Origin: Elusimicrobiota bacterium
GTDB lineage: Bacteria; Elusimicrobiota; Endomicrobiia; CG1-02-37-114; JAHJSO01
DNA length: 64,000 nt
Direction of reading: 5' to 3'
Assembly (NCBI GenBank): GCA_043826435.1
Contig: JBDRQF010000053.1
Location: 896-64,895 of the forward strand
Made by a program: the position numbers and the translations under genes. The notes beneath the pieces were generated by a model. The model saw only the letters and a list, made by a program, of their open reading frames with translations. It had not been told where the DNA came from and did no database searches. Positions 12,661-29,507 of the stretch are shown piece after piece. The stretch's first letter is position 1; each line of letters begins with the position of its first letter.

Positions 12661-12848
12661 ACGATGCAACATCTCTTTACGCATGGAACTCGCGGGGAAA
12701 AAACAAAACAAACAGAAATCTGTGGTGAGCAGGGTCGAACCATCGGCGAAATCCCTGAAAGATGGGAAGTGGTTGAATTAAGCAGCATTTGTGATTACGC
12801 AACTAGAAAATTGACATGGCCGGTGTATATCTCCGGTAGCCAAAGTTA

Positions 12849-13664
12849 ATGAATAATCATACTATAGCAAAAAACATCCTAATTCACAAACAGATAGGTG
12901 AGGTTGTTTCTGAATTTAACAGGGAGAATATTGACTTTATACTCCTGAAGGGGGCGGCACTCATAGAGATATTTCCCGACTATGCCTTTTCCCGCGATAT
13001 GGAAGATATAGACATCCTGGTAAAAAAAAGGTCTTTTTTGATGGCGAAACACATCCTGATAAACATTGGATATTCCTGTGCAATAGAGGACCCTGGTGCA
13101 TTTTTTAAGCAGGGGTTTCCCGCCCGTATTGACCTGTGTGATGGGTTGTGGTATCTGGACAGATCCGAGAACATCCTGTTGTTTAAAGAAGCAAAAATTT
13201 TTTTTGATATATCCGTTCTTTCCCCGGAGGATTTTTACATCCATGTTTTTGCGCACGCCTTTTTACATCACGCCAGAAGAGAGAGGGCGTGGTTGGATGA
13301 CTTGGCATTGCTTTCCGAGAGGTGGGCAGAGACAATAGATAAAAAGACATTAAGTTTAAAAATAAAAAAATACGGGTTTGACAGGGTGAGTAGCAACCCT
13401 TTTTATAACTGGTTTCTTGACAAGGAAATACCGCTTAAAGGACACATATTCAGATTTTTTTTCCTCCCGGTGAGAAAAAAGTTTTTATACATCAACGACC
13501 TTTTATTCCCGTCAGTTGATTTTCTTACGGGGAGGTATTCATTGAGAGGGTTCGGGCAGGTAGTTTGTTTTAGAATCATAAGACCCGCAATGTTGTTGTT
13601 TCAGTTTTTGAGATTTCTAACAGGGGTTGTTGGTTCCCTGTTTTTGCGCACCCAAAGTACTTAA
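12849..13664 (+). CDS. NTP_transf_5-type (PF14907-like) nucleotidyltransferase of unknown function
   Basis: 'QIGEVVSEFNRENIDFILLKGAAL...DMEDIDILVKK...GY' matches the family's N-terminal signature. Confidence 0.5.
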   Translation: MNNHTIAKNILIHKQIGEVVSEFNRENIDFILLKGAALIEIFPDYAFSRDMEDIDILVKKRSFLMAKHILINIGYSCAIEDPGAFFKQGFPARIDLCDGLWYLDRSENILLFKEAKIFFDISVLSPEDFYIHVFAHAFLHHARRERAWLDDLALLSERWAETIDKKTLSLKIKKYGFDRVSSNPFYNWFLDKEIPLKGHIFRFFFLPVRKKFLYINDLLFPSVDFLTGRYSLRGFGQVVCFRIIRPAMLLFQFLRFLTGVVGSLFLRTQST

Positions 13665-13680
13665 CATTCCGAACAATGTG

Positions 13681-13712
13681 GGAACTCAATGAAGCATCAG
13701 AGTTCCTTTCCT
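13681..13712 (+). terminator. Putative rho-independent terminator after the NTP_transf_5 gene
   Basis: Hairpin GGAACTC-(12 nt)-GAGTTCC followed by TTTCC. Confidence 0.35.
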
Positions 13713-13740
13713 GCGGCAGTAATCAATTGAATAATTAAAA

Positions 13741-13920
13741 AAATGCCAGCCCGCCAATCCTTGCAGTTCCATCGGTTGGTATAATTATGGTGGAAAGAAT
13801 TTTCAAAAGGGTGGTTTTACCAGCACCGTTTGGCCCGATGACAGCAGTTATTGAAGAAGGGGGAGATTCAAAAGATAACCCTGAGAGGGCAATAATTATA
13901 CTGTCCCCCATTAGTAGGGC
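13741..13920 (-). pseudogene. Truncated remnant of an ABC-transporter ATP-binding protein (N-terminal ~60 aa with Walker A)
   Basis: The minus-strand translation is 'LSGLSFESPPSSITAVIGPNGAGKTTLLKILSTIIIPTDGTARIGGLAFF*'. It stops right after the Walker A region and lies between the NTase gene and the IS remnant. Confidence 0.6.
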
Positions 13921-14000
13921 AGGCGAGTTAAGTTAGAGAAGGGCCTCTTGAAAAGACCTTACAAAAGAAGTAAAATAGGGGTCAAAAAGGAGGCACGGAG

Positions 14001-15064
14001 ATGGAGCGAAGGAAATGGGACAGTGCAAAGAAGTTTGAGGTGGTAGTGGAAGGGCTAAAGAGCGGGGTGTCAATCAGTGAGATGTGCAATCGGCACCAGA
14101 TATCGCAGGCGCAGTATTACAAATGGCGAGACCAGTTCATCAACAACGGCAGAAAAGTGTTTGAGATGCCTGCTAAGAACAAGGGGAGGAGCGGTTGAAG
14201 CAGGAGATAAGGAAGTTAAAGACAATCATTGGAGATTTGACGACGGAGTTAAAAAAAAACGACTACGAGTGAAACGGGCAAAATCACAAAAAGTTATGAA
14301 AAGGAATGCGGGGATAGTATCACAGATAAAAGAGATAAAAAGCGAGCATCCTTTGTGGGGATTTCGCCGGGTGTGGGCGTATATAAGATTTTAGAGGGGG
14401 ATTTTGGTAAATCGGAAACGGATATATCGTTTGATGAAAGAAAACGATTTGCTGGTTAGTCAGATAAAAAAGTTAAAAGCGGCCAAGAAAAATTAGAGCG
14501 ACAAAACCCGGCGAGGTTTGGGGCATAGATATGACGAAGGTTCTCACAAAAACTGGTTGGATAAATTTGGTCATAGTGCTTGACTGGTACACAAAGAAAA
14601 TAGTTGGTTTTAATGCAGAAGTTTACTCACGAGCCGATGAGTGGCTTAAGGCGTTGAACTTTGTGGTATTGGAACAGTTTCCCAACGGCATAAAGGAACA
14701 CGGGCCTCTATCACTGGTAAGCGACAACGGGAGTCAGCCGACGAGCGTTAAATTTATGAAGGAAACGTCGCTGCTCGGCATAAAACAGATATTCGCCAGT
14801 TACGACAATCCGAAAGGCAACGCCGACACTGAGCGAGTAATAAGGAAGCTAAAAGAGGATTTGGTCTGGCCGAGAGAGTTTGAAAATATTTATGAGTTCA
14901 AAGATGCGCTGTGTAAATTGGTGAACGATTACAACACGGACTTTCCGCATTCGTCGTTGAATTATCTGACGCCGGTAAAGTTTGAAGAAATATACCTGGC
15001 TGACCTGGCGCAGCAAAATATATTAAACCAGGGGGCCTTAAACTCTAACTTATTTTTCGCTTGA
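14001..15064 (+). mobile_element. Decayed IS3-family insertion sequence: an OrfA HTH fragment, then an OrfB (DDE/rve integrase) broken by frameshifts and stops
   Basis: OrfA-like 'SISEMCNRHQISQAQYYKWRDQF'. OrfB N-terminal 'IKEIKSEHPLWGFRRVWAYIRF'. An in-frame stop precedes 'ATKPGEVWGIDMTKV...GWINLVIVLDWYTKKIVG', then comes the rve core ending '...LNYLTPVKFEE'. Inverted terminal repeats were not identified. Confidence 0.7.
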
Positions 15065-15265
15065 CAAACGGGGGACAGTACATAATCTGTTTACCTCTGA
15101 CACGGAATACCTTTTTTAATCTCTCCGCATTTATGCTTATCATAATACCCGTTGCCTCAGGCCATCTGTTCCTCTGGCCACCTATTTCCCTTGCCGCTTA
15201 ACTTATGATATTCTGCCTCTTACTTCTTGCCCCCCGCCCTGTAGTCCACATTTTACCATTTTGTA

Positions 15266-15294
15266 TTGACAAATTCAAATATTTATAGTATAAT
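15266..15294 (+). promoter_or_regulatory. Perfect sigma70 consensus promoter, TTGACA-17 nt-TATAAT
   Basis: TTGACA at 15266-15271, a 17-nt spacer, TATAAT at 15289-15294. A 12-codon hydrophobic mini-ORF (MRVLKNLFLISF, 15304-15342) starts almost at the predicted transcription start. The HEPN gene lies about 230 nt downstream. Confidence 0.5.
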
Positions 15295-15527
15295 TCTAAC
15301 ATAATGAGAGTGTTGAAAAACCTCTTTTTGATTTCATTCTGAGTGAAACGAATAATCTCAATCAGTCGGAGTCGGGAATGACTATAGGTCTTTCCAATCT
15401 ATCGGGAAAAGGTTGATTTGATAACTGCAGGTTTGAAAAATAATTGAGTATTGAAAAAAAGTTGTTGATTTGCTACCATATTTGACAAGAGAGAAGGTCT
15501 CATAATTTCTATTAGAGTTTCACCAAT

Positions 15528-15914
15528 ATGAAAAACATTACAAAAAAATGGCTCGAGTTTGCTGAAAAAGATTTGAAAGTTGCTAATGATTTGTTAGAAA
15601 AGAAACACTGGCAGTATTGTGCTCTTTTCTGCCATCAAGCAATAGAAAAAATATTGAAAGCATACATTATTGAAAAAGGCAAGACTCCAAGAAAAATTCA
15701 TGATTTAACCAGTCTTTTGGTAGATGCGGGAATTAAGGTTTCCGAGCGTATTATTTCAATTGTTGAGACCTTAAATCCTCATTATATGCCACCACGATAT
15801 CCTGATATAGCTTACAAAATAAAACTCATTTATACCGAAGAAATTGCTTGGAATTTACTAAAATCTACACAGGAGATATTCAAATGGCTAAAAGACAAGT
15901 TGCACGAGAAATAG
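15528..15914 (+). CDS. HEPN-domain protein, the toxin partner of a HEPN/MNT pair
   Basis: 'CFCHQAIEKILKAYI...HDLTSL' is the HEPN signature. It overlaps the downstream MNT gene. Confidence 0.7.
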   Translation: MKNITKKWLEFAEKDLKVANDLLEKKHWQYCALFCHQAIEKILKAYIIEKGKTPRKIHDLTSLLVDAGIKVSERIISIVETLNPHYMPPRYPDIAYKIKLIYTEEIAWNLLKSTQEIFKWLKDKLHEK

Positions 15915-16219
15915 TTTATCAGTATATTCAACTTTTAGAAAATAAGATACGAATAGATAAAGTTATTCTCTTTGGTTCAAGTGCGAATGGAAAAATTGGA
16001 AGAAATAGTGACCTTGATATCATTATACTCTCGGATGACTTTAAGAAAATGAACTTCTTGAAAAGATTGGAACTTTTATCACGTGCGCGAGGCAGGGAAT
16101 GTATCTCGGTGCCAATGGATATTATTGGATATACTACAAAAGAGTTTTCCCGATCAAGTAAAGAATCATTAATTCTCGGGGAAGCCAAAAAGAACGGACA
16201 AGTAATTTGGTCAAGATAA
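15884..16219 (+). CDS. Minimal nucleotidyltransferase (MNT, Pol-beta superfamily), antitoxin partner of the HEPN protein
   Basis: 'ILFGSSANGKIGRNSDLDIIIL' matches the GS-x9-DxD NTase motif. The probable ATG at 15884 overlaps the HEPN 3' end. Confidence 0.7.
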   Translation: MAKRQVAREIVYQYIQLLENKIRIDKVILFGSSANGKIGRNSDLDIIILSDDFKKMNFLKRLELLSRARGRECISVPMDIIGYTTKEFSRSSKESLILGEAKKNGQVIWSR

Positions 16220-16237
16220 ATTATAGGGTTAGTTTGA

Positions 16238-16564
16238 TTGCTAAAAAATTTTTCTAAGAAAGAAATGATAGAAGTATATTCGTGGTTATTTGTATACAAG
16301 GAGTGGAGTAAACAGGAGAGAAAACCATTACAAGATAAGGGTTTTGAAGAAAGTTTCCGAGACTATCTTTGTAGGCATCAAATGAATTTTGATAGAGTGT
16401 CCAATGTTAGAGATATGGGATTTGGATTGTCTTACCAAACATTATCAGATATCCCTCATGAGTTAGATGTGATTTGTGTAAGAGGTAGTGAAATACATTC
16501 ACCTGGAGACGATGGAAACGATAGGAGTTTTGTTGTGAGGTCGTTTTATATAATTACAAGATAG
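16238..16564 (+). CDS. Hypothetical protein (108 aa) with no recognisable domain
   Basis: ORF with a TTG start (or the ATG at 16265). No signature recognised. Confidence 0.3.
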   Translation: MLKNFSKKEMIEVYSWLFVYKEWSKQERKPLQDKGFEESFRDYLCRHQMNFDRVSNVRDMGFGLSYQTLSDIPHELDVICVRGSEIHSPGDDGNDRSFVVRSFYIITR

Positions 16565-16575
16565 AGAAGTAAAAA

Positions 16576-18417
16576 ATGGCAAAAAATACAACCCAGTCAT
16601 TTTCAACTCATTGTAGCGAAAGATTTCAAAATCTGAGAATATACTTCTGGCCAGTTGTTATATTTTTATTTGCACTTTTGGTACGGTTATTTTACTGGAT
16701 GCAATTAAAAAATTTTCCTTTATCTCAGGTACCAGTTGTTGACGGTTTGTTCTATATAAAGTGGGCTGAGAGTATTAGTTTGGGTGATTGGTTAACTAAA
16801 TGGCAGGGAATATATTATTTAAATCCTGGTTATCCTTATCTTCTTTCATTCATTTTTTTGATTTTTGGGCGACAGATGCATTCTATACTTTTAATACAAT
16901 TTATTATAGGCACATTTAGTTGTGTGTTTGTTTATCTTCTTGCAAAAGAATATTTTAACCATAGAGTAGGAATTATATCTTCTATTGTTGCTTTGTTATA
17001 CGGTGTGTCACTTTTTTTAGAAGGGCTTCCTGTTACCGCCAGTTGGATTAATTTTTGGAATCTACTGATGTTACTGACCATCACAATTGCTCTTAAAAGA
17101 AATTCACTTTTGCTTTCTTTTTTTGCAGGAATATTCTTGGGATTATCAAATTTATTTAGAGCCGGCCCCGTAATATTGATTCCTGGAATTATTTTATATA
17201 TGTTTATTTCTGGTAAAAAGAAGAGGGAGATTGCGTATATATCAAGTTCGTTAATCCTGGGTTTTTTACTATTCTTTTTGCCAGTTATTTTGAGGAATTC
17301 TCTCTTTTCCAAACAACTTATTTTATCACCAACCGCTCATTCTGGAATAAATTTTTATATCGGTAACCATCTCCACGCAACTGGTTCATATGTACAAACA
17401 GAGTTTGATACAGGTGATCCTAAACTACAAATTCAAGATTACAGAAAAAGAGCAAGTCAAATTCTCGGGAGAGAGGTTTCTCTTAATGAATCTTCAAATT
17501 TTTGGTTTTCTGAAGGAATGAAGTTTATCAAGGGGAATCCTTTAAAGTGGTTAGCCCTCGTTGGAAGAAAGTTTTATTTACTCTTAGGTTATTATGAAAC
17601 AGGGTTAAATTATAGTTATTACTTTTTTCAAGAACAGATTTCGTTTTTAAAACTTCCATTTTTACTATCTTACGGTTTTATCGTTCCCTTTGCCTTAATA
17701 GGTCTGGTTTTATCTATAGAGCGAAAGAATCTACTCTTGCATTTTTTTATTATTTGTGCCGTTGTGGTATTACTTCTTTTTTATGTTACTACTGAATATA
17801 GATATTCTATTGTTCCGATTTTTATAATTTTTCACTCATACTTTCTTTATTGGATGTATGAACAGATAAAAACAAAAAGGTATAAGGTCCTTTGTCTCTC
17901 TTTGATGGCATCTTTAGGATGGGCACTATTTATTAATTTCCCAAGGAAGGAAATAAAGTTTGATAGAGATTATGTTAAATTGGCTACTGCGCATCTCACA
18001 TTAGGAGAAGCCGACCAAGGAATAGCATTGCTGGAGCGGGCTCTGGAATATAAGAAAGAAAGTTACATATATTATAACCTTGCTCATGCATATGCTTACG
18101 AGAAACATGACTATGTAAGAGCCATTGAAAATTACAAAAAAGCAATTGAATCAGACCTTAACAACCTGAATGCCTACGAAGAATTAGTTGAAGTATACTT
18201 AAAAACCAAAGAATATGAAAATGCAGAGAAGACATGTGAAGGGTTAATCAAAATATATCCCAAACATTATCCGATACATCAAATCCTGGGAAATATTTAT
18301 TATTTGCGAGGGAAGAAGAAACAGGCAATCCAATCCTGGGAAAATTCCCTTAGAATTTACCCGAATAACCCAGAATTGAGGAAAAACATAGAACGTCTTT
18401 TAGAGAAAAAAGGTTAA
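16576..18417 (+). CDS. Polytopic GT39/PMT_2 (ArnT-like) family glycosyltransferase with C-terminal TPR repeats
   Basis: About 10 predicted TM helices with PMT_2-like N-terminal loops ('DGLFYIKWAESI', 'NPGYPYLL'). The C-terminal 130 aa are TPR-like ('YNLAHAYAYEKHDYVRAIENYKKAIE...'). Confidence 0.55.
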   Translation: MAKNTTQSFSTHCSERFQNLRIYFWPVVIFLFALLVRLFYWMQLKNFPLSQVPVVDGLFYIKWAESISLGDWLTKWQGIYYLNPGYPYLLSFIFLIFGRQMHSILLIQFIIGTFSCVFVYLLAKEYFNHRVGIISSIVALLYGVSLFLEGLPVTASWINFWNLLMLLTITIALKRNSLLLSFFAGIFLGLSNLFRAGPVILIPGIILYMFISGKKKREIAYISSSLILGFLLFFLPVILRNSLFSKQLILSPTAHSGINFYIGNHLHATGSYVQTEFDTGDPKLQIQDYRKRASQILGREVSLNESSNFWFSEGMKFIKGNPLKWLALVGRKFYLLLGYYETGLNYSYYFFQEQISFLKLPFLLSYGFIVPFALIGLVLSIERKNLLLHFFIICAVVVLLLFYVTTEYRYSIVPIFIIFHSYFLYWMYEQIKTKRYKVLCLSLMASLGWALFINFPRKEIKFDRDYVKLATAHLTLGEADQGIALLERALEYKKESYIYYNLAHAYAYEKHDYVRAIENYKKAIESDLNNLNAYEELVEVYLKTKEYENAEKTCEGLIKIYPKHYPIHQILGNIYYLRGKKKQAIQSWENSLRIYPNNPELRKNIERLLEKKG

Positions 18418-18421
18418 AGTC

Positions 18422-20275
18422 ATGAAAAATTTTAAAACAACCCCTATTCTTGTAATATTTTTTCTTTTTTGTTTTACATTATTAGGTATTGATTCTCTTC
18501 GGCAAGAATCAGCTACCTTTGATGAATCTGAGCATTTAGCTGCTGGTTATTCTTATTGGAAAACGGGTGATTATAGATTAAATCCTGAGCATCCACCACT
18601 TATAAAAATGATTGCTGCGTTACCTTTGCTTTTATTCAATCCCACTTTCCCTAAAGAACATATCGCTTGGGAGAAAAGGTTACAGTTTGTAATCGGTGAC
18701 ATTTTCCTTTATCATAACTCTGTCGATGCCGAAAAGATGCTTTACCTTGGACGTATAATGCTCCTTCTAGTTATCACTATTCTTCTTGGTTGGATAATTT
18801 ATCGTTGGGGAACTGAACTTTATGGACATTTTGGAGGTTTATCAGCTTTATTCTTTTTCTCTTTTTGTCCGCCAATTATTGCTCATACAAAATTGATTAC
18901 TACTGATATGGGACTAACCTGTTTCTTTTTTTTATCTATCTATTTATTGTGGAAATTAAAGCGAAATCCATCCATATATCACGTTATTCTTTTTGGTTTA
19001 GCTTTCGGCGCCGCGTTAGAATCAAAATATTCAGCAATTCTTCTTTTTCCGATTTGTAGTCTATTAATCTTTTTATGGATAAGTGAACAGTATAAAAAAA
19101 CTAAATGGACAAAAGAAAGTGCTAGAATACTATATTATACAGCAGTCTTTTTTGTAGTTACTTTTTCTGTTGTTTTTCTCGTTTCTGGCTGTAGGATTAA
19201 TAATCTACACTGGTATTGGATAGGTTTGAATAAAGTTTTAACTAAATCCGCCGACGGAATGCCATCTTTTCTTATAGGGAAATATTCTACTGATGGCTGG
19301 TGGTATTATTTCTTAATAACTTTTCTGCTTAAAACACCTATTCCATTCCTAATTCTGTTATGTCTGGGTATTCGGTTTAGTTCTTTAAAGGAATCAAATT
19401 ATGTACGAAAAGAAATATTATGGCTTCTTATTCCTGTAATTATCTATTTTTTTATCGCTTCTTTTTCAAAGGTACAAATTGGACACAGATACATTCTGCC
19501 TATTTATCCTTTTCTCTTTGTCTGGGCTGGAGGAATTTCTTCTTCAATACAAGGAAAATTCAGATATTTACTATTAGGTGGACTTGCTGTGTGGTATGCA
19601 GGGAATACGTTGTATACCCATCCGCATCATCTATCATATTTTAATGAATTTGTCGGTCATCCGTCTAATGGGTATAAATATTTGGTTGAATCAAATCTGG
19701 ACTGGGGACAAGGACTGAAATTGCTCGGTCGATATCTTAAAAGTCAGCATGTGCAAAGTATTTATTTTTCTTATTTTGGTACCGCTGACCCAGCCTATTA
19801 TGGAATTAAATATGTCCCTATCAGCTTCGTAAGTGCTATAAATCGCACTGGTGATGAAGTTAACCCGCTAGACGAGCACCGCTGTTTATTCGCTATTTCA
19901 GCGACCAATCTCCAAGGGGTATATACACAGGGGCCTAACCGTTTCAGCTGGTTAAAAACGCGCTCCCCCATAAAAATTATTGCTAATTCAATATTTGTGT
20001 ACGATATTACTGACGATGTCGAAGCACATGAAATACTAGCGAGATATTTCACGATAGAAAAACAATATGATAAATCAATAAATCATTATAAACAAATAGT
20101 AAAATTGAACCCTGAGAATGGATTGGCATATCAATGTCTTGGTAATATATATTATATTCAAGGGAGAAAAGATTTAGCAAAAAAATATTGGGGGATTTCA
20201 TTAAATATTGAACCTAACAATCCTTTATTAAAAGAGAACTTGAAGAAGTTATCAGTCAATTTGAAAGAATGTTAA
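18422..20275 (+). CDS. Second GT39/PMT_2-family glycosyltransferase with C-terminal TPR repeats, a tandem paralog of the first
   Basis: 'FDESEHLAAGYSYWKTGDYRLNPEHPPLIKMIAALPL' is the conserved PMT_2/ArnT loop motif. The protein is polytopic, has a TPR tail, and starts 5 nt after the previous stop. Confidence 0.6.
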   Translation: MKNFKTTPILVIFFLFCFTLLGIDSLRQESATFDESEHLAAGYSYWKTGDYRLNPEHPPLIKMIAALPLLLFNPTFPKEHIAWEKRLQFVIGDIFLYHNSVDAEKMLYLGRIMLLLVITILLGWIIYRWGTELYGHFGGLSALFFFSFCPPIIAHTKLITTDMGLTCFFFLSIYLLWKLKRNPSIYHVILFGLAFGAALESKYSAILLFPICSLLIFLWISEQYKKTKWTKESARILYYTAVFFVVTFSVVFLVSGCRINNLHWYWIGLNKVLTKSADGMPSFLIGKYSTDGWWYYFLITFLLKTPIPFLILLCLGIRFSSLKESNYVRKEILWLLIPVIIYFFIASFSKVQIGHRYILPIYPFLFVWAGGISSSIQGKFRYLLLGGLAVWYAGNTLYTHPHHLSYFNEFVGHPSNGYKYLVESNLDWGQGLKLLGRYLKSQHVQSIYFSYFGTADPAYYGIKYVPISFVSAINRTGDEVNPLDEHRCLFAISATNLQGVYTQGPNRFSWLKTRSPIKIIANSIFVYDITDDVEAHEILARYFTIEKQYDKSINHYKQIVKLNPENGLAYQCLGNIYYIQGRKDLAKKYWGISLNIEPNNPLLKENLKKLSVNLKEC

Positions 20276-20347
20276 TCTTTTACTAAATATACGAGAAAAG
20301 AGAATGAAAAGATTAAAAACCTGAATTTAATGGGGACAAAATAGTTC

Positions 20348-23300
20348 ATGAAAAGAAAACAGATATTCTTAAAGTGTATGTTGTTGTGTTTATTCACAAT
20401 TGGACAAGGAACCTCAACAGCATCGATAATTTCTGGAACAGGTACCCATTTTGAGATATCTATTGAGGATTCGCAAACACTAACTTTGGATAGTAGTCAA
20501 GATATCAATGTTCTGTTAGAATATACACCCGCTTGTGAGATTAGTATCTTGATAGGAAGTACCACACTTACTTCAACGCATCTTACATTGGGTGGACTTA
20601 CAGCCAATACGACATATTACAAATATCTAAATGGGGTGCTTTCAGAGCATTTCTTATCTCAACAGGATGGGAAATACGTCTTTTTGCAGGACCTTTCTGA
20701 ACCGTGCCACATCTTCTTTAGTATGGACAAGTTAACTCTATCTTATATTACACCAGATGGAAATGTTACACCAGCCACGGTGCCTATTAAAAGAGTTACT
20801 GATGAGACATATGTTCTTATTGGTGATATTGAGGGTTCCATAGTAGTTCAAAAGGATGGTATAACCATAGACCAGAATGGTTACGCTATTCGTGGTCAGA
20901 GTTCTTTCGGATATTATATAGTTTTCGGAAGAGATATAACCATAGAAAATGTAAATATTCAAGGATACACCTACGGTGTTTTCGCAGCATATTCTTATAG
21001 AATTTCTGTAATCAAAAGCACTATTACCTTGAATACAAATGGACTTTTCTTTCACTCGCAAGGCGGCGCTTTGATTTCTCAAAATTTAATATCTTCAAAT
21101 ACTATAGGAATTCACTTCTGGTCGCCAGGGCATGAAAATACAATAGAGGGTAATCATATTTGCAATAATGACATAGGTATACGAATAGCATCAGATATAT
21201 ACATTAGCCGCTACAACACTGTTAGAGGAAACACAATAACACAGAATACCTACGGAATAAATATAAGTTATTGTGAGGAATTTGAAGCAATACACAACAA
21301 CTTTATCAATAATACAACTCAAGTAGAAATAGGTCCATGGTGTAGGGGTCTTCGGTGGGACGATGGTTATCCATATGGTGGTAATTATTGGAGTGACTAC
21401 GTCGGAATTGACAATTACAGTGGTTCCAATCAAGACCAACCGAGGAGTGATTGGATTGGCGATACTCCATATATTATTAATGCGTCTTATAAAGACAATT
21501 ATCCATTCATGATGAAAGATGGCTGGCGTCTTGATACAACCCCACCAGTAAGTAAGTTAGAAGTTGGAAATCCAAAGTATGAATATGAAGGTAAAATCTA
21601 TGTATCTACGATAACAGAATTTACAATAACTGCTGACGATGGTGAAGGACGTGGTGTAAAACTGACCAAATACCGTATTGACGATCAACAACCGTGGATA
21701 CTTTATAAAGGCAATTTTACATTAGCCGGTATATCCGGTATTTCTATAATTCCAGGAGGATGCGTGGGATACTGGAAATTTGATGAAGGTGAAGGGGCAA
21801 CCGTAATTGATTCTGTTGGTACAAATGACGGGACAATCTGTAGCGCAACATGGACAGCAGGAAAAATTGGTAATGCATTAAGTTTTGATGGTGTAGATGA
21901 TTATGTGAGAGTTCCAAATAGTGATAGTTTTAATTTACATAAAAACAGTTTAACACTTGAGGCTTGGGTTTATCCAAAAGCATATACCGGATACTGGGAG
22001 GGAGGGATAATTGGTAGAGTTATAGATCCATACGGTTGGAGATTAAGTGTAAGAAGCACGCGATATTCTCCGGGAACAATTTGTGGGGGTGTACAGAATC
22101 TTGTTTGGATAGATTCTGTAGAGAAAGCACCGTTAAATATTTGGACACACATTGTTATGGTGTATGATTTTGATAAAGATATAGAACAACTTTGGGTAAA
22201 TGGAGTAAAAGATAATGAGGTGAGTTCTGTAAGGGATAAAGAAATTTACGCTAATTTCAATATTAATAGTCCTCTTGGGATTGGACTTTATTATTATCAG
22301 GGAAATCCAAATATGGGTGCGTGTTTTAACGGTCTTATCGATGAAGTAGCCATCTACAACCGGGCATTAACTCCTGAGGAAATATACTCAAGATATACAG
22401 TCACAATAGTCCCAATAACAGAAGGACATCACACGTTTTCATATTACAGTACTGACGTTGTAGATAACAAAGAGGTAGTGAAAAGTACAAACATTGTTGT
22501 CGATGTAACCTCACCAGATACACCACAAATGAACCTTGAGCCAGAATTCACTAGTTCTCTACAGAATACCGTTTCCTGGTTGGAATCAACTGATACCTTA
22601 AGTGGAGTTTATGGCTATTTAGTTGAATGTTCTACAATTGAGGATTTCACTACTATTTTTTCATCATCCAGCTGGATTAAAATTACAAGTTATACTTTCG
22701 CAAATCTTTCAGATGGTATAAAATACTTTTATCGTGTGAAAGCAAAAGATAATGTTGGGAATGAAACTATTTGGTCAAATGTTGTATGGTCAATACAAGA
22801 TAATACAGCTGCAACTTTTGAAGTAATACCCTCAACTGGTGGAATATCTGTTACTGCCGCAGGCACTATTAACATTGATATAATTGCCAGCGAACCTTTA
22901 GTTGCTGCGCCAACTGTTTATGTAACCCAGAGTGGTCAGGAATTTGCTACTGATATTACAGCAACATTAACCACTACTGATAATATTTCCTGGACAGGAA
23001 CTTATGATGTAACAAATAATTACGATGGTATAGCGATTATTGAAGTAACTGGTAAAGACCGGGTGGGCTATACCAGTAAAGGACGAGGTGGTTTTGAAGT
23101 AGCAATTGGTCCTACAGGTCAAAATATTATCATTAGTAATGTTTCTGATTCACCAGATCCTTTTTCGCCGAGGACAGGTGAATCAACAACAATCTATTAT
23201 GAACTTTCTACAAGTGGCGGACAAATTAGTATTACCACAACAACAATAACTTTTGAAAATGCTCAAGGAGTTATTGTTGACAGCGTAACTATTTTTAACC

Positions 23301-24930: not shown

Positions 24931-25902
24931 ATGAATAAAAACATTATAAAAAAAGTTTTGGGATTATCAATTGGAAATATGTTATTATGCTGTTTTGCAG
25001 TAACTAATTGTTTATCAGAAACAACAGGTGCCTCTTTTCTAAAAATTGGTGTTGGAGCAAGACCGATTGCTATGGGTTCCGCATTCACAGCAGTAGCAAA
25101 CGATGTCACCGGGATATACTGGAATCCTGCCGGACTACTACAATTAACCAAAAGAGAAATTTCAGCAATGCATACAGAATGGATAGCAAACACACGGCTT
25201 GACTTTATTGGATATGCCCAGCCAACAAGAGCGGGTGTGTTTGGCTGTGGTATAATCTACTTATCACAGCAAGATATAGAAGGCAGAGATGAAAACCGAC
25301 AGATAACCAGTCCATTTGGTGCAAGTGACCTTGCAGTGACATTGAGTTATAGTCGTCACCTGACCGAGTTATCAAGATTAGTATCAGCAGGACTAAATGT
25401 AAAATTCATCCAGCAGAACATAGAAAATTATACAGCTCATGGAATAGCAATAGACATAGGCACACTTTATCAGACACCGATAAACAATCTCAAAGCAGGG
25501 CTATCAATTCAGAATATAGGACCACAGATGAAGTTCATCAGCCAGACATATAATCTACCCTTGACAGCGACATTTGGGATTGGGTACACAATGAGCGGAA
25601 TAGTCATTGCATTAGACCTCAAACAGCAGGTATATGAAGGCAGAACAATAATTTCAGCAGGAACAGAGTATTGTCCAATGAACTTAATTGTTCTGCGGAT
25701 AGGCTATGCTGGAAAGTTGACAGAAAGCATACTTTCAAACAGGGATATAATTCAAGGAAACAATACAGACAGCACAAACTTCACTGGCTTTGGTGCAGGG
25801 CTCGGCTTACGACTTTTTACCAACTATCAAATGGACTACTCATTTGCTCCTTATGGTCTGCTGGGGGATACACACAGGATAAGTTTTTTGGCAAGATTTT
25901 AG
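24931..25902 (+). CDS. PorV/PorQ-family-like outer-membrane beta-barrel protein (323 aa) directly downstream of the sorting-domain cargo gene
   Basis: Signal peptide, then 'TTGASFLKIGVGARPIAMGSAFTAVANDVTGIYWNPAGL'. Amphipathic beta-strand patterning to a C-terminal '...GLLGDTHRISFLARF'. About 80% aa identity to ORF 32574-33545. Confidence 0.55.
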   Translation: MNKNIIKKVLGLSIGNMLLCCFAVTNCLSETTGASFLKIGVGARPIAMGSAFTAVANDVTGIYWNPAGLLQLTKREISAMHTEWIANTRLDFIGYAQPTRAGVFGCGIIYLSQQDIEGRDENRQITSPFGASDLAVTLSYSRHLTELSRLVSAGLNVKFIQQNIENYTAHGIAIDIGTLYQTPINNLKAGLSIQNIGPQMKFISQTYNLPLTATFGIGYTMSGIVIALDLKQQVYEGRTIISAGTEYCPMNLIVLRIGYAGKLTESILSNRDIIQGNNTDSTNFTGFGAGLGLRLFTNYQMDYSFAPYGLLGDTHRISFLARF

Positions 25903-25959: not shown

Positions 25960-26376
25960 ATGATAAAATTTATTTTTTCTGACGCCATCTCCTTTCTGGC
26001 AGGTGTTTTAATCGTCGGTGGTTTATTGCTTTTTGTCATTGTTATGAGAGCCATTTTTGTGGGCGCGAAAACACGCAAAGCCCGTCGGAATGACACATTA
26101 AGCGATGAAGAAAAAACCCCATCAGCCGCTGAAAGACCGAAGGAAACAGACGGCGCACTCATAGAAGCACATCTGAATGCAATCGCCCAGGAGATTGCCG
26201 TGATAAAGCAGATTGTTTCCGACAAATCCGCAATTGAAGATGTCCAGAAACAGATTGACGCTCTCCTCACCCGAAAGGATACCGGCGGCGCCGACTATCT
26301 CCAGAAAGAAATCCTGAAGATTAATGCAAAACTGGAAGCGATATACAATGTGATGTCCGACCTTGCCAAAGGATAG
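25960..26376 (+). CDS. Small membrane-anchored coiled-coil protein, hypothetical, co-oriented with the Wza/Wzc genes
   Basis: The N-terminus has one TM helix and the rest is predicted helical. Its stop abuts the Wza-like start. Confidence 0.35.
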   Translation: MIKFIFSDAISFLAGVLIVGGLLLFVIVMRAIFVGAKTRKARRNDTLSDEEKTPSAAERPKETDGALIEAHLNAIAQEIAVIKQIVSDKSAIEDVQKQIDALLTRKDTGGADYLQKEILKINAKLEAIYNVMSDLAKG

Positions 26377-27582
26377 ATGAAAAACCCCCTGTTAGCATTT
26401 TTCATTTCGGTGAGTTTGTTTCTTGCAGTCAGCCAGGCAAGGGCGCAAGAGTTATCCCCCGGTACATTCCATGACGATCTCGCGTATTATTACAGGGTCA
26501 GCGAAAAGCAGGACCTAAGTCCCAACGACAGGTATTACATCCTCCTGAAAATAAAAAATAAATACAAGAACACGAACATAAACATTTCAAAACTGGAAAC
26601 AGAAATTGATAAACTGAAGGTTGAAAAGAGCAAACTGATTGACGGCCAGACGGCTGTCGCACCTGAACTTCCGAAGAACAGCCAGCCCCCGGTCCTGCCC
26701 CAGACAATGCCTCAGTCCCGGACATCCTCACCGCCCGTGGACAAGAAATACAAAATTGAACAGGGAGACATCCTTGCCATCAACGTAACGCCGGCTGAAG
26801 AGGTTTCAAGGGAAGTAATAGTCAAGCCGGACGGGACTATCTCGTTGCCGCTCGTCGGCAGCATTAAGGCGGAAGGCATGACTGCCGAAGAACTTTCAAG
26901 GATGCTTGAGAAGAATCTTTCAGTTTACATTACAGGCCCGAAGGTCTCAATAAACATGAAGCATTTCAGCAGGAGACAGATTTTTGTAATGGGCCAGATA
27001 AACAGGGCGGGGGCGTATGAATTCAGGCCGGGGTTGCGTATTTTTGAACTAATTTCCATTGCAGGAGGCCTCGGGAAAGAGGCATCTGCAAAGAATATCA
27101 GGGTGCACCGCGGCGAGAGGGAAAACAGGAAGACATTTACCGTGAACCTTGACGAGGTAATAAAATCAGGCGACCTGTCAAAGGATTTTGCCCTTGAATC
27201 GGGGGACATAATTGAAATCCCGAGAGAGCCGAAAAGTGTTTCTGTGATAGGGGCAGTAAATTCGCCGGGCGTGTATGAATGGCACGGGGGTATGCGCGTG
27301 CTGGATGCAATCTCTGCTGCAAAAGGACATTCCGAAATTGCAAGTTTAGGGGCGGTGAGGGTTTTCCGGGAGACATCCGAAGGCAAAAAAAGATTAAAGA
27401 TAGTCCCCGTGAATAAAGTGCTGGCAGGGAACACACAGCACGATATTGACCTTGAGCCGGGAGACATTGTATATGTGCCGAAAAGGGCGCTTGCCACAGG
27501 CCAGTGGTTTGTCCAGACCGTTCTGCCGTGGCTTTCGCTGATATCTTTGGTTCTTGTAATTATTGCCTATACTCCGAAATAG
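26377..27582 (+). CDS. wza: Wza-like outer-membrane polysaccharide export protein (Poly_export + SLBB domains) with an N-terminal coiled-coil extension
   Basis: 'YKIEQGDILAINV...VIVKPDGTISLPLVGSIKAEGMTAEELSRMLEKNL' (Poly_export). 'SVIGAVNSPGVYEW' (SLBB). C-terminal hydrophobic helix. Confidence 0.6.
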   Translation: MKNPLLAFFISVSLFLAVSQARAQELSPGTFHDDLAYYYRVSEKQDLSPNDRYYILLKIKNKYKNTNINISKLETEIDKLKVEKSKLIDGQTAVAPELPKNSQPPVLPQTMPQSRTSSPPVDKKYKIEQGDILAINVTPAEEVSREVIVKPDGTISLPLVGSIKAEGMTAEELSRMLEKNLSVYITGPKVSINMKHFSRRQIFVMGQINRAGAYEFRPGLRIFELISIAGGLGKEASAKNIRVHRGERENRKTFTVNLDEVIKSGDLSKDFALESGDIIEIPREPKSVSVIGAVNSPGVYEWHGGMRVLDAISAAKGHSEIASLGAVRVFRETSEGKKRLKIVPVNKVLAGNTQHDIDLEPGDIVYVPKRALATGQWFVQTVLPWLSLISLVLVIIAYTPK

Positions 27583-27617
27583 GAATACCGGCAGCAATCA
27601 ACATGGAGGAGATTTAA

Positions 27618-29507
27618 TTGGAACAATACGGGCTGACCGTCTATGATTACTGGCGTATAATAAGACGCAGGAAATTCATAATATTTTTCAGCGTAGTGAG
27701 CGTCCTAATTTTCACCTGGATTTTTACGAACCTGCAGACCCAGGTATATCAGGCGACGGTGGTAGTTAAGGTTGAACCATCTCTTATTGTTCCCGGCGTT
27801 TCAACCGAGTTGTTAGGGTGGGACATGCTTGCCGCAATAAACACCGAGGTGAAGATAATAAAGAGCGCCGTGGTGGCTAAAAGGACGGCGTTAAAACTCG
27901 GGCTGCTTCCCCCTGTTATAACCGAAGAAGAACAAAATTCAATAATAGCGAACGTGCAATCAAAGATAGAGGCGGAAAGGGTAAGCGACACAAACCTTAT
28001 AAAAATAATGAGCACGGGCGCCGACCCCGATGAGTTATACAAATTAGCGAACGTCACGGCGGAGGTTTACATAGAAAAGGGTATTGAAGACAGGACGAGG
28101 AGGGCAAGGGAGTTAAGGGAGTTTATAGAAACGCAGCTGACGGATGCAGGACAGAAATTGAAAGAGTCGGAGGAGAAACTAAGAAAATGGACGGAACAGA
28201 CGGGCGCCACTGGGATGGGGGGACACCTTGCCCTGCAGGCCGTGAACCTTCAGACACGGCAGGCGGACCTGCTTAAAAAATACACCGCGAAACACCCTGA
28301 CGTCGTTGAAATAAAAAAGCAGATTAAAACAATTGAAGACCAGATGAGGCAACTGCCGAGGGAGGAACTGGAATACGCCCGCCTGATTCGCGACGCAAAA
28401 CTGAATGAGGAACTCTACACCCTCCTTGCAAAGAGGCACAAAGAGGCGCAGATATCAGAGGCGGACAGGGTCCAGAGTGCGTTTATTGTGACGCCCGCAA
28501 CGAGGCCGTCTTACCCGATAAAACCCAACAAGATTATGAATATTACTCTTGGAGGCCTGGTGGGTATTTTCGTCGGGTTTATCTTTGCGCTTGTTACCGA
28601 GCACATAGACACGTCTATCGGGACCATAGAGGAACTTGAAACATACCTGCAGTTGCCTGCGATAGGGATAATACCGCACATAGAGGGGGTGTCTAGAAGA
28701 GGGGGGTTCAGGATTGATGCGGGGTTGTTCCGCAGGGCGGACGACATTGACGATATAAGAAGAAAACTCATTGTCTCCCACTCAACAAAATCTCCTTTTG
28801 TAGAGGCGTATCACACGCTCAGGACAAACATAAAATTTGTGAAAGAGGAAATGCCCGGGCCAGGCGCCAGCATCCTGGTTACCTCATCAGGGGTAAGCGA
28901 GGGGAAAACGTTGACTGCAATAAACTTTGCACTCGCTGCCTCGCAGGTAGGCATAAAGACCCTGTACATGGAACTGGACCTCCGCCGGCCGGCCGTTCAT
29001 AAAATTTTTGGAATTAAGAGAGCACCTGGTTTCAGCGATTGCATCCTCGGAAAGAAAAGATGGACGGACATCCTCCGCGGCACGACCGATTTCCTGATGG
29101 GAGAAATCGCACTGGATAAAATCATCAGGAGCCCGGGGCTTGAAAACCTGAAAATTATTCCGTGCGGCTCAATACCGCCAAACCCGGTTGACACGTTGAA
29201 CTCGCCGTTTGTGGGAGAGGTGCTGGACGAGATGCGCCGGAGTTTTGAACTGATTGTCTGCGACTGCCCGCCCGTCCTGCTATTTGCGGATTCGCTTATC
29301 CTGTCAAAACACGTGAACTCGGTTATAATAGTTTACAGGGTAGGCAGGATAGCCCGCGGGGCGCTGAAGAGGACAAAGGAGCAATTGGTGTCCGCAAAGG
29401 CAAACGTTTTAGGGGTTGTTCTGAATGACATAAAGGCAAGCGAGATGGAACCGAGATACGGATATTATTACGATTACAAGTATTACGCGGATGCGGAAAA
29501 GAAATAG
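27618..29507 (+). CDS. wzc: Wzc-like polysaccharide co-polymerase / BY-family tyrosine autokinase
   Basis: TTG start after GGAGGA. Wzz-type N-terminus with a TM helix. Periplasmic coiled coil. Second TM. Walker A 'VTSSGVSEGKT'. Tyr-rich tail 'YGYYYDYKYY'. Confidence 0.7.
   Translation: MEQYGLTVYDYWRIIRRRKFIIFFSVVSVLIFTWIFTNLQTQVYQATVVVKVEPSLIVPGVSTELLGWDMLAAINTEVKIIKSAVVAKRTALKLGLLPPVITEEEQNSIIANVQSKIEAERVSDTNLIKIMSTGADPDELYKLANVTAEVYIEKGIEDRTRRARELREFIETQLTDAGQKLKESEEKLRKWTEQTGATGMGGHLALQAVNLQTRQADLLKKYTAKHPDVVEIKKQIKTIEDQMRQLPREELEYARLIRDAKLNEELYTLLAKRHKEAQISEADRVQSAFIVTPATRPSYPIKPNKIMNITLGGLVGIFVGFIFALVTEHIDTSIGTIEELETYLQLPAIGIIPHIEGVSRRGGFRIDAGLFRRADDIDDIRRKLIVSHSTKSPFVEAYHTLRTNIKFVKEEMPGPGASILVTSSGVSEGKTLTAINFALAASQVGIKTLYMELDLRRPAVHKIFGIKRAPGFSDCILGKKRWTDILRGTTDFLMGEIALDKIIRSPGLENLKIIPCGSIPPNPVDTLNSPFVGEVLDEMRRSFELIVCDCPPVLLFADSLILSKHVNSVIIVYRVGRIARGALKRTKEQLVSAKANVLGVVLNDIKASEMEPRYGYYYDYKYYADAEKK

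What the first reader, a model, noticed from the sequence alone, without database searches (positions are those of the whole stretch)
16576..20275. Tandem GT39/PMT-like glycosyltransferases with TPR tails lie immediately upstream of a giant cargo gene
There are two paralogous polytopic ArnT/PMT_2-type transferases, each with a C-terminal TPR domain. The second has the conserved 'DESEHL...EHPPL' loop. They sit 70 bp upstream of the 1518-aa surface protein on the same strand. PMT-family enzymes O-mannosylate proteins, and TPR domains commonly recognise protein substrates. The arrangement suggests dedicated glycosylation of the adjacent secreted proteins. This is an inference from gene order only.
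Basis: inference. Interest (0 to 1): 0.5.

Follow-up and report, generated by a model that had tools for sequence, protein, structure and literature searches.

The report
Membrane sugar-transferases beside a secreted surface protein
Two different membrane glycosyltransferases with protein-binding (TPR) tails sit directly upstream of a giant secreted surface protein in an Elusimicrobiota genome, and relatives of the first enzyme recur next to such surface-protein genes in several bacterial phyla, which suggests (not shown) that it puts sugars on its neighbour.

Summary
Two 613/617-aa polytopic GT-C (Pfam PMT_2) proteins with C-terminal TPR repeats lie 4 nt apart, and the second ends 72 nt upstream of a 1518-aa surface protein that is followed by a PorV/PorQ-family gene, all on the + strand. 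"Paralogous" is overstated: only the TPR tails align by BLASTP, and the cores are remote homologues (hhalign 99% probability, 16% identity) from two distinct subfamilies. Neither enzyme nests within ArnT or PMT; both AlphaFold models are generic GT-C folds.

Gene-order evidence splits the pair.
- **GT-B (18422-20275)** has a PMT-like DE…HPPxxK loop. Its family is very large and reaches archaea, CPR bacteria and Chloroflexi. Cargo/PorV genes lie near only 2 of 80 homologues.
- **GT-A (16576-18417)** is nearly always TPR-tailed. Cargo-like or PorV genes lie within 6 kb of 27 of 80 metagenomic homologues, about ten-fold denser than at 6-10 kb.
- GT-A's closest relative (45% identity) is followed by a protein 37% identical to the first 475 residues of this cargo.

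Dedicated periplasmic protein glycosylation, analogous to eukaryotic TMTC/TMEM260, is therefore plausible for GT-A. It remains untested, as do the acceptor, the sugar and GT-B's role.

The parts
16576..18417 (+). GT-A: 613-aa GT-C glycosyltransferase (PMT_2) with my reading of 11 TM segments and about 5 C-terminal TPR hairpins (residues 463-612). Family motifs are D56 in the first outer loop, PxYPYLL 84-90, RN 240-241, GINFYIGN 257-264, E341 and RYR 407-409.
18422..20275 (+). GT-B: 617-aa GT-C glycosyltransferase of a different subfamily. It has a PMT-like loop 1 (D34 E35 ... H57 P58 P59 L I K62), a conserved C-terminal alpha/beta domain (~400-530, YFNEF...DSNLDWGQGL) and a short TPR tail (533-610).
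   Evidence: Pfam PMT_2 39.4 bits. 7213 homologues at E<=1e-5, most ~550 aa without TPR. Invariant residues. AF2 pLDDT 92.2. Foldseek: ArnT E 2.5e-7, Pmt4, STT3, ALG9/12, PglB. The H-x-P-x-x-K spacing matches H159/P161/K164 among the conserved loop-1 residues of S. coelicolor Pmt; of these H159 was essential (PMC8698208).
20348..24904 (+). Cargo: 1518-aa secreted surface protein with a signal peptide, a NosD-type parallel beta-helix head (169-353), LamG_3 (514-679), fn3, FlgD_ig, a ZU5-like domain and a T9SS-type C-terminal domain (~1428-1518).
   Evidence: Pfam NosD 82.8 bits, Laminin_G_3 74 bits, Por_Secre_tail 20.7 bits (below cut-off). The C-terminus aligns to NF052323. Residues 1-475 are 37% identical to the protein next to the closest GT-A relative. 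The C-terminal 500 aa are 35% identical to the window's other cargo at 33582-36857.
24931..25902 (+). PorV/PorQ-family outer-membrane beta-barrel gene, 26 nt downstream of the cargo gene.
   Evidence: NCBIfam PorV_fam 188.3 bits (cut-off 90). 73% identical to the second copy at 32574-33545.
16238..16564 (+). Small ORF (99-108 aa, no family) ending 11 nt upstream of GT-A. It may be the first gene of the same-strand run.
   Evidence: ORF list. Called as a 99-aa gene in three other assemblies. No Pfam hit.
25960..29507 (+). Downstream same-strand genes: a 138-aa ORF, a Wza-like polysaccharide exporter (26377-27582) and a Wzc-like chain-length/tyrosine-kinase protein (27618-29507). This is context for the rival 'polysaccharide' reading. 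GC rises here to 0.47-0.52.
   Evidence: Pfam Poly_export/SLBB and GNVR/Wzz. Composition.

Best explanation
GT-A, and less certainly GT-B, is an inner-membrane GT-C glycosyltransferase that takes a sugar from a polyprenyl-phosphate carrier. Its catalytic loops and its TPR tail face the periplasm.

Proposed sequence of events:
1. The adjacent 1518-aa protein is exported by Sec and folds in the periplasm.
2. The TPR tail recruits it, and the enzyme glycosylates Ser/Thr on its beta-helix or Ig-like domains.
3. The C-terminal sorting domain and the co-encoded PorV-family protein then take it to the cell surface.

This is the bacterial counterpart of eukaryotic TMTC1-4 and TMEM260, which are GT-C + TPR enzymes that O-mannosylate specific beta-sandwich domains.

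**Shown:** the GT-C fold, conserved acidic and phosphate-binding loop residues, the TPR tails, tight same-strand spacing, and recurrent linkage of GT-A relatives with surface-protein and PorV genes.

**Inferred:** the periplasmic orientation (positive-inside reading), a protein acceptor, the identity of the sugar, the role of the TPR tail, the order of events, and any role for GT-B.
For: **Fold and catalytic residues**
- Both proteins pass the PMT_2 threshold.
- Both fold with pLDDT 92 into GT-C structures matching ArnT, AglB/STT3, Pmt4 and PglB.
- D56 (GT-A) and D34-E35 (GT-B) in the first outer loop are invariant.
- GT-B's H57-P59-K62 repeat the H-x-P-x-x-K spacing of H159/P161/K164, three of the conserved loop-1 residues of S. 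coelicolor Pmt; H159 is essential there.

**Operon-like layout**
- Gaps along the + strand are 11, 4, 72 and 26 nt.
- No terminator-like hairpin lies in any of these gaps.

**Neighbourhood of GT-A relatives**
- 27 of 80 loci carry a PorV-family or CTD-cargo-like gene. 10 have the cargo-like gene within 400 bp. These loci fall in 5 of 18 clusters at 40% identity.
- Density is 7-8 per 100 kb at 0-6 kb against 0-0.9 at 6-10 kb (39 versus 1 hits, p = 6e-5).
- The cargo - PorV - lipoprotein X - GT-A cluster is kept in Zixibacteria between orthologues only 44-80% identical.
- A Latescibacteria relative sits among four CHU_C/FlgD_ig proteins.
- L093 has the same order, GT-A then cargo then PorV.

**Closest relatives**
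- P0208 (45% identity) is followed by a NosD protein 37% identical to cargo residues 1-475.
- P0210 (42%) lies in the run YfhO - GT-A - TPR protein - CTD cargo - PorV.
- P0168 (36%) lies among PorV and CTD genes.

**Precedent**
- TMEM260 has 11 TM helices plus a lumenal TPR region and is specific for IPT domains. TMTCs act on cadherin EC domains (PMC10214176).
- Full-length GT-C + TPR homologues have been noted in uncharacterised prokaryotes (PMC7801869).
Against: - No result here identifies the acceptor. All support for a protein acceptor comes from gene order and analogy.
- Linkage is not universal. 53 of 80 GT-A loci show no cargo or PorV gene, though many are short contigs. P0135, P0124 and P0169 have none.
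- The linkage hits are not independent. Many are orthologous Zixibacteria clusters, and cargo and PorV genes sit next to each other.
- A flank-normalised test on PorV alone was not significant.
- A 73%-identical second cargo-PorV module in the same window has no GT-C gene beside it.
- The GT-B family is not linked to cargo (2 of 80) and occurs in organisms without an outer membrane.
- No polyprenyl-phosphate sugar synthase (DPM1-like GT2) is encoded in the window.
- NosD-type beta-helices often act on carbohydrates (my own knowledge). The conserved pair could therefore share a glycan substrate rather than be enzyme and substrate.
- Wza and Wzc lie just downstream.
Confidence: 0.42

Rival explanations
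1. Shared-glycan reading. GT-A and GT-B decorate a polysaccharide or glycolipid (capsule/EPS, LPS core, or the glycolipid that anchors sorted proteins) in the periplasm. The TPR tail would act as a scaffold, as in PgaA, BcsC, PelB and AlgK. The neighbouring beta-helix surface protein would bind or process that glycan, or be anchored to it. Linkage would then reflect a common glycan, not an enzyme-substrate pair.
For: - The window is a large envelope-glycan region. Wza and Wzc follow on the same strand.
- A Wzx/Wzy cluster with GT4, GT2 and methyltransferase genes lies at 37-50 kb.
- ArnT, a lipid-acceptor enzyme, is the top or joint-top structural match for both enzymes.
- The TPR tails give weak hits to PrsT and PgaA models.
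- NosD/beta-helix domains are commonly carbohydrate-active (own knowledge).
- In L177 the partner enzyme is a YfhO-family member, a family known for glycosylating teichoic acids (own knowledge).
Against: - GT-A relatives are linked to cargo of many different domain types: fn3, Big_5/CARDB, FG-GAP, and Zixibacteria proteins with no Pfam family. The link is not specific to beta-helix proteins.
- The closest relative pairs with a NosD protein that has no sorting domain and no PorV neighbour. This argues against a role tied to the anchor.
- Wza and Wzc lie outside the low-GC block that holds GT-A, GT-B, cargo and PorV.
- Wza/Wzc are not found beside GT-A relatives. Wzc-like hits occur in only 2 GT-B loci.
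Confidence: 0.27
2. Split roles. Only GT-A serves the cargo. GT-B is a general envelope glycosyltransferase (for example of pilins, S-layer proteins or lipids) that sits here by chance or arrived on the same low-GC island.
For: - The GT-B family exceeds 7000 homologues and spans archaea, CPR bacteria and Chloroflexi.
- Only 2 of 80 loci hold PorV or cargo genes.
- The closest homologues lie in housekeeping operons or in TMEM260-like arrays.
- A GT2 is adjacent in 7 of 80 loci and within 10 kb in 22 of 80.
- The closest GT-A relative pairs with the cargo-head homologue with no GT-B gene in between.
Against: - GT-B is separated from GT-A by 4 nt and lies between GT-A and the cargo, so it is very probably co-transcribed.
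- Unlike most of its family it has gained a TPR tail.
- Its best genome-collection relative (L009, 41%) lies 1 kb from a CHU_C cargo plus PorV-OmpA pair.
- Tandems of two different GT-C enzymes beside cargo recur, for example YfhO + GT-A in L177.
Confidence: 0.2
3. Chance adjacency. GT-C + TPR genes and sorted surface-protein genes are both numerous in these genomes and cluster in variable envelope islands without any functional link.
For: - There are three cargo-PorV modules in 64 kb, and only one has GT-C genes beside it.
- The region is a low-GC island carrying transposase and toxin-antitoxin remnants.
- The PorV-only flank test was not significant.
- Many GT-A loci lack cargo genes.
Against: - There is a ten-fold density drop beyond 6 km... 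6 kb within the same contigs.
- Synteny is kept down to 44% identity in Zixibacteria.
- The GT-A plus cargo-head pair is kept at 45% and 37% identity in an otherwise different context.
- All three closest relatives with known context lie beside surface-protein genes.
Confidence: 0.11

Closest known systems
TMTC1-4 (CAZy GT105) and TMEM260 (GT117), eukaryotic domain-specific protein O-mannosyltransferases
   Same: - GT-C membrane core followed by a TPR region on the non-cytoplasmic side.
- A catalytic Asp in the first outer loop.
- TMEM260 has 11 TM helices, as I read for GT-A and GT-B.
- Their clients are folded beta-sandwich domains of surface proteins (PMC10214176). The cargo proteins here are rich in such domains.
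- Prokaryotic full-length homologues were noted but never studied (PMC7801869).
   Different: - Neither the TMTC model (DUF1736; accession from memory) nor the TMEM260-like model (PF11028) appears among the hits for GT-A or GT-B.
- The donor carrier would be bacterial polyprenyl phosphate rather than dolichyl phosphate (own knowledge).
- The acceptor is unknown.
- Here the enzyme genes sit beside candidate client genes, which eukaryotic genomes cannot show.
Actinobacterial and fungal PMT (GT39): Pmt, Pmt1/2, Pmt4
   Same: - The GT-C fold, with Pmt4 and Pmt1/2 among the structural matches.
- GT-B carries the DE motif and the H-x-P-x-x-K motif of PMT loop 1.
- Many GT-B relatives have a weak PF02366 hit.
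   Different: - The window proteins themselves do not hit PF02366 at E<=0.01.
- There is no MIR domain and no PMT_4TMC hit.
- GT-B has its own conserved C-terminal alpha/beta domain plus TPR.
- GT-A lacks the HPPxxK motif.
ArnT (GT83), lipid A aminoarabinose transferase
   Same: - Top or joint-top structural match for both enzymes.
- Periplasm-facing and polyprenyl-phosphate-sugar dependent.
- Carries a C-terminal periplasmic domain.
   Different: - No ArnT or other curated NCBIfam model hits either core.
- No arn operon genes are present.
- The GT-B family occurs in organisms I take to lack lipid A.
- TPR tails are absent from ArnT.
Type IX secretion cargo with PorV shuttle, and the general O-glycosylation of such cargo in Bacteroidota
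   Same: - The cargo has a T9SS-type C-terminal domain and is followed by a PorV/PorQ-family gene.
- Periplasmic O-glycosylation before type IX export is known in Bacteroidota (own knowledge; O-glycoproteome papers were listed but not read).
   Different: - The organism is Elusimicrobiota, and related loci are Zixibacteria and Latescibacteria.
- Each cargo has its own PorV paralogue.
- The sorting domain scores below the Pfam threshold.
- No core T9SS genes lie in the window.
- The enzyme proposed here transfers from a monophosphate carrier and is cargo-linked, not a general oligosaccharyltransferase.

Membership tests
GT-C superfamily (Pfam clan CL0111; PMT_2, PF13231) | Sequence match to a GT-C family model above its curated threshold | tested here: met
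   PMT_2 scores 55.3 bits (GT-A) and 39.4 bits (GT-B) against a cut-off of 26.1.
GT-C superfamily (Pfam clan CL0111; PMT_2, PF13231) | Polytopic GT-C fold | tested here: met
GT-C superfamily (Pfam clan CL0111; PMT_2, PF13231) | Conserved acidic residue in the first extracytoplasmic loop | tested here: met
   D56 is invariant in 30 GT-A relatives. D34 and E35 are invariant in 29 GT-B relatives.
GT-C superfamily (Pfam clan CL0111; PMT_2, PF13231) | Use of a polyprenyl-phosphate-linked sugar donor | not testable with these tools
   This is inferred from the fold only. A DPM1-like GT2 is adjacent to some homologues (7 of 80 GT-B loci, 5 of 80 GT-A loci), but none is in the window.
PMT proper (GT39; PF02366 plus PMT_4TMC) | Match to PF02366 and to the C-terminal 4-TM module | tested here: not met
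   Neither window protein lists PF02366 or PMT_4TMC at E<=0.01. Many GT-B relatives carry a precomputed PF02366 hit, some marked weak.
PMT proper (GT39; PF02366 plus PMT_4TMC) | Loop-1 signature DE ... H-P-P-x-x-K | tested here: inconclusive
   The signature is present in GT-B (D34 E35; H57 P58 P59 L I K62) with the same H/P/K spacing as S. coelicolor Pmt H159/P161/K164. It is absent from GT-A.
PMT proper (GT39; PF02366 plus PMT_4TMC) | Protein Ser/Thr acceptor | not testable with these tools
   This needs glycoproteomics or an enzyme assay.
ArnT (GT83) | Match to curated ArnT models, and an arn operon context | tested here: not met
   No NCBIfam model hits either membrane core. No arn genes appear in the annotated window ORFs. 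The structural match to ArnT is no better than to other GT-C enzymes.
TMTC (GT105) | GT-C core followed by a non-cytoplasmic TPR region | tested here: met
   TPR families hit residues 463-612 (GT-A) and 533-610 (GT-B). My reading of 11 TM segments with positive loops inside places the tails in the periplasm (sequence; an inference).
TMTC (GT105) | Match to the TMTC-specific model (DUF1736) | tested here: not met
   It is not among the Pfam hits at E<=0.01 for either protein.
TMEM260-like (GT117; PF11028) | Match to PF11028 | tested here: not met
   There is no hit for GT-A or GT-B. PF11028 + TPR proteins do flank GT-B homologues in other Elusimicrobia.
Type IX secretion cargo (neighbouring gene 20348-24904) | C-terminal sorting domain above threshold | tested here: inconclusive
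   Por_Secre_tail scores 20.7 bits against a cut-off of 27. The C-terminus aligns to NF052323 (34 bits), and to a profile whose last ~120 positions match a Por_Secre_tail protein.
Type IX secretion cargo (neighbouring gene 20348-24904) | Presence of core T9SS machinery in the genome | not tested
   Only PorV/PorQ-family genes are in the window. The rest of the genome was not available.

The most novel reading that the evidence does not exclude
Bacteria of several phyla (Elusimicrobiota, Zixibacteria, Latescibacteria) have client-dedicated protein O-glycosyltransferases of the TMTC/TMEM260 type. Each is a GT-C core with a periplasmic TPR tail, encoded next to the surface protein it modifies and that protein's private PorV-type export partner. 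If so, domain-specific O-glycosylation by GT-C + TPR enzymes predates eukaryotes and acts as a maturation step for sorted bacterial surface proteins. In this locus, two different GT-C enzymes would act in sequence on one giant cargo.
Probability: 0.3. Interest if true: 0.75.

Novelty: new variant of a known kind. Interest (0 to 1): 0.55.

Why it matters
GT-C + TPR proteins form a very large and uncharacterised group in bacteria. The GT-A core alone has about 12,000 representatives at 50% identity.

Their only characterised analogues, TMTC1-4 and TMEM260, are human disease genes, and how those enzymes choose their clients is poorly understood.

A bacterial system in which enzyme and candidate client are encoded side by side would help in two ways:
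- It would make that recognition problem directly testable by co-expression of two or three genes.
- It would add a maturation step to the biology of sorted surface proteins outside Bacteroidota.

If instead the enzymes act on a glycan, the result still defines two distinct, widespread GT-C subfamilies with clear motifs and different genomic habits.

Tried and rejected
- **Sequence searches against solved structures.** Single-sequence searches of the PDB with the membrane cores found nothing. Profile searches found nothing for GT-B and only TPR proteins in the listed matches for GT-A. Fold searches were needed instead.
- **First protein search with full-length GT-A.** It was swamped by TPR word matches and returned only 47 hits, without the query's own cluster. 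Repeating with the core gave 52 hits. The exhaustive search then showed the true family size.
- **Metagenome scan with the 30-sequence alignment.** A smaller alignment worked.
- **The afdb50 fold library.** It was unavailable, so nearness to TMTC or TMEM260 models could not be measured.
- **'Recent tandem duplication' reading.** Rejected: the cores share 16% identity and have different motifs.
- **'ArnT / lipid A modification' reading.** Rejected as a family assignment.
- **Nearest-distance test for PorV alone.** Not significant once the short flanks were allowed for. I replaced it with a density-by-distance profile, whose hits are not independent.
- **Protein X.** The lipoprotein that accompanies PorV in Zixibacteria has no homologue in the window. 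One seed of that profile (L089 11551-13338) turned out to be an unrelated polytopic protein.
- **Literature searches.** Searches for T9SS with Elusimicrobia returned four papers that I did not open. T9SS with Zixibacteria returned none. A search for a Bacteroidota O-oligosaccharyltransferase of GT-C type found nothing relevant.

Full report
**What is there**

The window comes from an Elusimicrobiota metagenome-assembled genome. The second enzyme is identical to an NCBI protein named 'glycosyltransferase family 39 protein [Elusimicrobiota bacterium]'. The first enzyme and the large neighbour are MFH2070890.1 and MFH2070892.1, the latter named 'NosD domain-containing protein'.

The + strand carries an unbroken run of genes:
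- a small ORF at 16238-16564;
- GT-A at 16576-18417 (613 aa);
- GT-B at 18422-20275 (617 aa);
- a 1518-aa protein at 20348-24904;
- a PorV/PorQ-family gene at 24931-25902;
- a 138-aa ORF;
- Wza-like and Wzc-like genes, ending at 29507.

The gaps are 11, 4, 72, 26, 57, 0 and 35 nt. No terminator-like hairpin falls in any gap. The block from about 10.2 to 26 kb has low GC (0.31-0.45, against 0.47-0.53 outside). Its upstream part holds mobile and defence remnants.

**Check of the observation**

Both enzymes pass the PMT_2 gathering score and both have C-terminal TPR repeats. GT-B reads DESEHL at 34-39 and EHPPL at 56-60.

The word 'paralogous' does not hold in the sense of a tandem duplication:
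- BLASTP aligns only the last ~80 TPR residues, at 35% identity.
- The membrane cores are related only at profile level: 99.2% probability, 16% identity.
- The conserved motifs differ. GT-A has D56, PxYPYLL, RN, GINFYIGN, E341 and RYR.
- GT-B has TxDExxH, HPPLxK, GRxSFLxGxYSxxGW, QIGLRHILPIYPF and a soluble C-terminal domain with YFNEF...DSNLDWGQGL.

**Classification**

Both AlphaFold models are confident (pLDDT 92).
- GT-B by Foldseek matches ArnT (E 2.5e-7), Pmt4, STT3, ALG9/12 and PglB at similar TM-scores.

Both are therefore ordinary GT-C folds that sit inside neither ArnT nor PMT. No curated NCBIfam model hits either core. Pfam reports no PMT (PF02366), TMTC-specific or TMEM260-like match for the window proteins.

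GT-B does share the DE motif with PMT loop 1. It also shares the H-x-P-x-x-K spacing of H159/P161/K164, three of the conserved loop-1 residues targeted in S. coelicolor Pmt; H159 was essential there (PMC8698208).

Reading the sequences with the positive-inside rule, I count 11 membrane segments in each, with the N-terminus inside and the TPR tail in the periplasm (sequence). This is an inference. It matches the 11-TM plus lumenal TPR layout reported for TMEM260 (PMC10214176).

**Family sizes and spread**

GT-B has more than 7000 homologues. Most are about 550 aa and lack TPR. A genome scan found them in:
- Elusimicrobia, Verrucomicrobiota and Planctomycetes;
- Chloroflexi, Acidobacteriota and Omnitrophota;
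- CPR bacteria, Woesearchaeota and Methanosarcinales.

The GT-A core has 12,026 representatives at E<=1e-3 and 1,833 at E<=1e-30. In the word-indexed searches nearly all homologues carry TPR Pfam domains, and the lengths of the top representatives fit TPR tails.

**Is the adjacency to cargo conserved? GT-B**

No.
- The closest homologues lie next to a GT2 between arginine genes (P0002), behind three TMEM260-like + TPR genes (P0006), or inside a riboflavin operon (P0008).
- Among 80 genome loci, my profiles built from the window's PorV and cargo genes found such genes in only two: L009 and L085.
- Several Elusimicrobia share a different array: DUF4159, three or four TMEM260-like + TPR genes, the GT-B homologue, then DUF4175.

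**Is the adjacency to cargo conserved? GT-A**

Often, yes.
- Among 80 metagenomic loci, 17 hold a PorV-family gene and 22 a cargo-like gene (Ig-like region plus sorting domain). 27 hold either, and 17 of the 40 loci of at least 10 kb do.
- Ten cargo-like genes lie within 400 bp of the enzyme gene.
- The positive loci fall in 5 of 18 clusters at 40% identity.
- Within the same contigs, PorV or cargo genes occur at 7.7, 7.9 and 7.2 per 100 kb in the 0-2, 2-4 and 4-6 kb bins. They occur at 0.9 and 0 in the 6-8 and 8-10 kb bins. That is 39 hits against 1, binomial p = 6e-5.

These hits are not independent, so the p-value is generous. An earlier nearest-distance test for PorV alone was not significant.

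One recurrent cluster, cargo - PorV - lipoprotein X - GT-A, belongs to candidate division Zixibacteria. It persists between orthologues that are 44-80% identical, in both convergent and co-directional layouts. A Latescibacteria relative lies among four CHU_C/FlgD_ig proteins. L093 repeats the window's order of enzyme, cargo, PorV.

**The closest relatives are the most telling**

- P0208 (45% identity over the core) is followed on the same strand by a NosD protein. The accessions are consecutive (HUW23589.1 and HUW23590.1).
- The first ~475 residues of that protein are 37% identical to residues 1-475 of this window's cargo. It has no sorting domain and no PorV neighbour, and the surrounding genes differ.
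- P0210 (42%, an Elusimicrobia genome) lies in the run YfhO-family GT-C, GT-A, TPR membrane protein, 892-aa cargo with a typical sorting domain, PorV-TPR fusion.
- P0168 (36%) lies among two PorV genes, sorting-domain proteins and a second PMT_2 + TPR gene.
- Three further relatives (P0169, P0124, P0135) show no such neighbours.

**Most likely mechanism**

GT-A is a periplasm-facing, polyprenyl-phosphate-sugar-dependent transferase. Its TPR tail recruits the neighbouring surface protein after Sec export and folding. The protein is then glycosylated before its sorting domain and its private PorV partner take it outward.

The pairing of GT-A relatives with the cargo head even where the sorting domain is absent favours a link to the protein itself rather than to the anchoring step. 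Eukaryotic TMTCs and TMEM260 are a close precedent for GT-C + TPR enzymes that act on specific beta-sandwich domains. I put this explanation at about 0.4.

**What remains inferred**

- The acceptor.
- The sugar.
- The topology.
- The function of the TPR tail.
- Any role for GT-B. GT-B may extend or add a second sugar, since tandems of two unlike GT-C genes recur. It may equally be a passenger.

**Rivals**

- The enzymes and the beta-helix protein may share a glycan substrate. Wza and Wzc lie downstream, a Wzx/Wzy cluster is nearby, ArnT is a top structural match, and periplasmic TPR scaffolds are typical of polysaccharide export.
- Against this rival, GT-A relatives sit beside cargo of many domain types.
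- Chance clustering in variable envelope islands is a further possibility. It is weakened by the density profile and by the conserved enzyme/cargo-head pair.
- A second cargo-PorV module in the window has a PorV 73% identical and no GT-C gene beside it. Any service must therefore either act in trans or be optional.
- No DPM1-like GT2 is encoded in the window.

**Verdict**

I found no description of this linkage in the searches I ran. The enzymes are new variants of a known kind (GT-C + TPR), and the linkage is a testable lead rather than a demonstrated system.

Noticed in passing
window 18-10371, 20348-25902 and 32574-36857: The window holds three 'large sorted protein + PorV/PorQ-family gene' modules. 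The PorV copies at 24931-25902 and 32574-33545 are 73% identical. Their cargo share only the C-terminal ~500 aa (35%), so a common stalk and sorting region carries different heads. The third PorV-like protein (8731-10371) is longer, at 546 aa.
   Followed up: partly
window 18-6185 and 6118-8634: Two overlapping + strand ORFs (2055 and 838 aa) may be one gene split by a frameshift or assembly error. The same beta-propeller family (Beta-prop_ACSF4) hits the last 60 residues of the first ORF and residues 139-368 of the second. Only the second has a Por_Secre_tail.
   Followed up: no
window ~10200-26000: This is a low-GC block (0.31-0.45 against 0.47-0.53 in the flanks). Its upstream part holds a Fic-like/HATPase_c_4 gene, a Bro-N gene, NTP_transf_5, an integrase-core fragment and a HEPN/nucleotidyltransferase pair. 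Three other assemblies of the same sequence break into 10-13 kb contigs that cover this block, which hints at a strain-variable island.
   Followed up: partly
window 10360-10397 and 11656-11693: A 38-nt direct repeat (95% identical) brackets the Fic-like gene at 10739-11593. It may be an insertion scar.
   Followed up: no
L104, L114, L131, L140, L144, L146, L149-L151, L153, L160 (e.g. L144 5279-10958): Candidate division Zixibacteria keep a cluster made of a ~900-aa sorted protein, PorV, a ~630-aa lipoprotein ('X', no Pfam or NCBIfam family) and a ~770-aa GT-A-type enzyme. X has no homologue in the window and its role is unknown.
   Followed up: partly
L010, L013, L015, L053, L085, L006: Elusimicrobia and Endomicrobiales carry arrays of three or four TMEM260-like (PF11028) + TPR genes in tandem. 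These are followed by a GT-B homologue and a ~1080-aa DUF4175 protein, and preceded by DUF4159. This is a large battery of GT-C + TPR enzymes of unknown purpose.
   Followed up: partly
L177 7791-18622 and L009 4323-6257: There are unusual fusions of the PorV-family barrel: with TPR repeats (L177, 640 aa) and with fn3 plus OmpA domains (L009, 644 aa). In L177 a YfhO-family GT-C precedes the GT-A homologue.
   Followed up: no
window 40598-42658 and 58134-60275 (- strand): The polysaccharide cluster holds two fusion enzymes: a GT4 glycosyltransferase fused to an APH/choline-kinase-like domain, and a methyltransferase fused to a GT4.
   Followed up: no
L175 6666-9140 (C-terminus): The NosD protein next to the closest GT-A relative ends in tandem GKPEIPPGQAKDK repeats instead of a sorting domain. 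This suggests a different way of being held at the surface.
   Followed up: no
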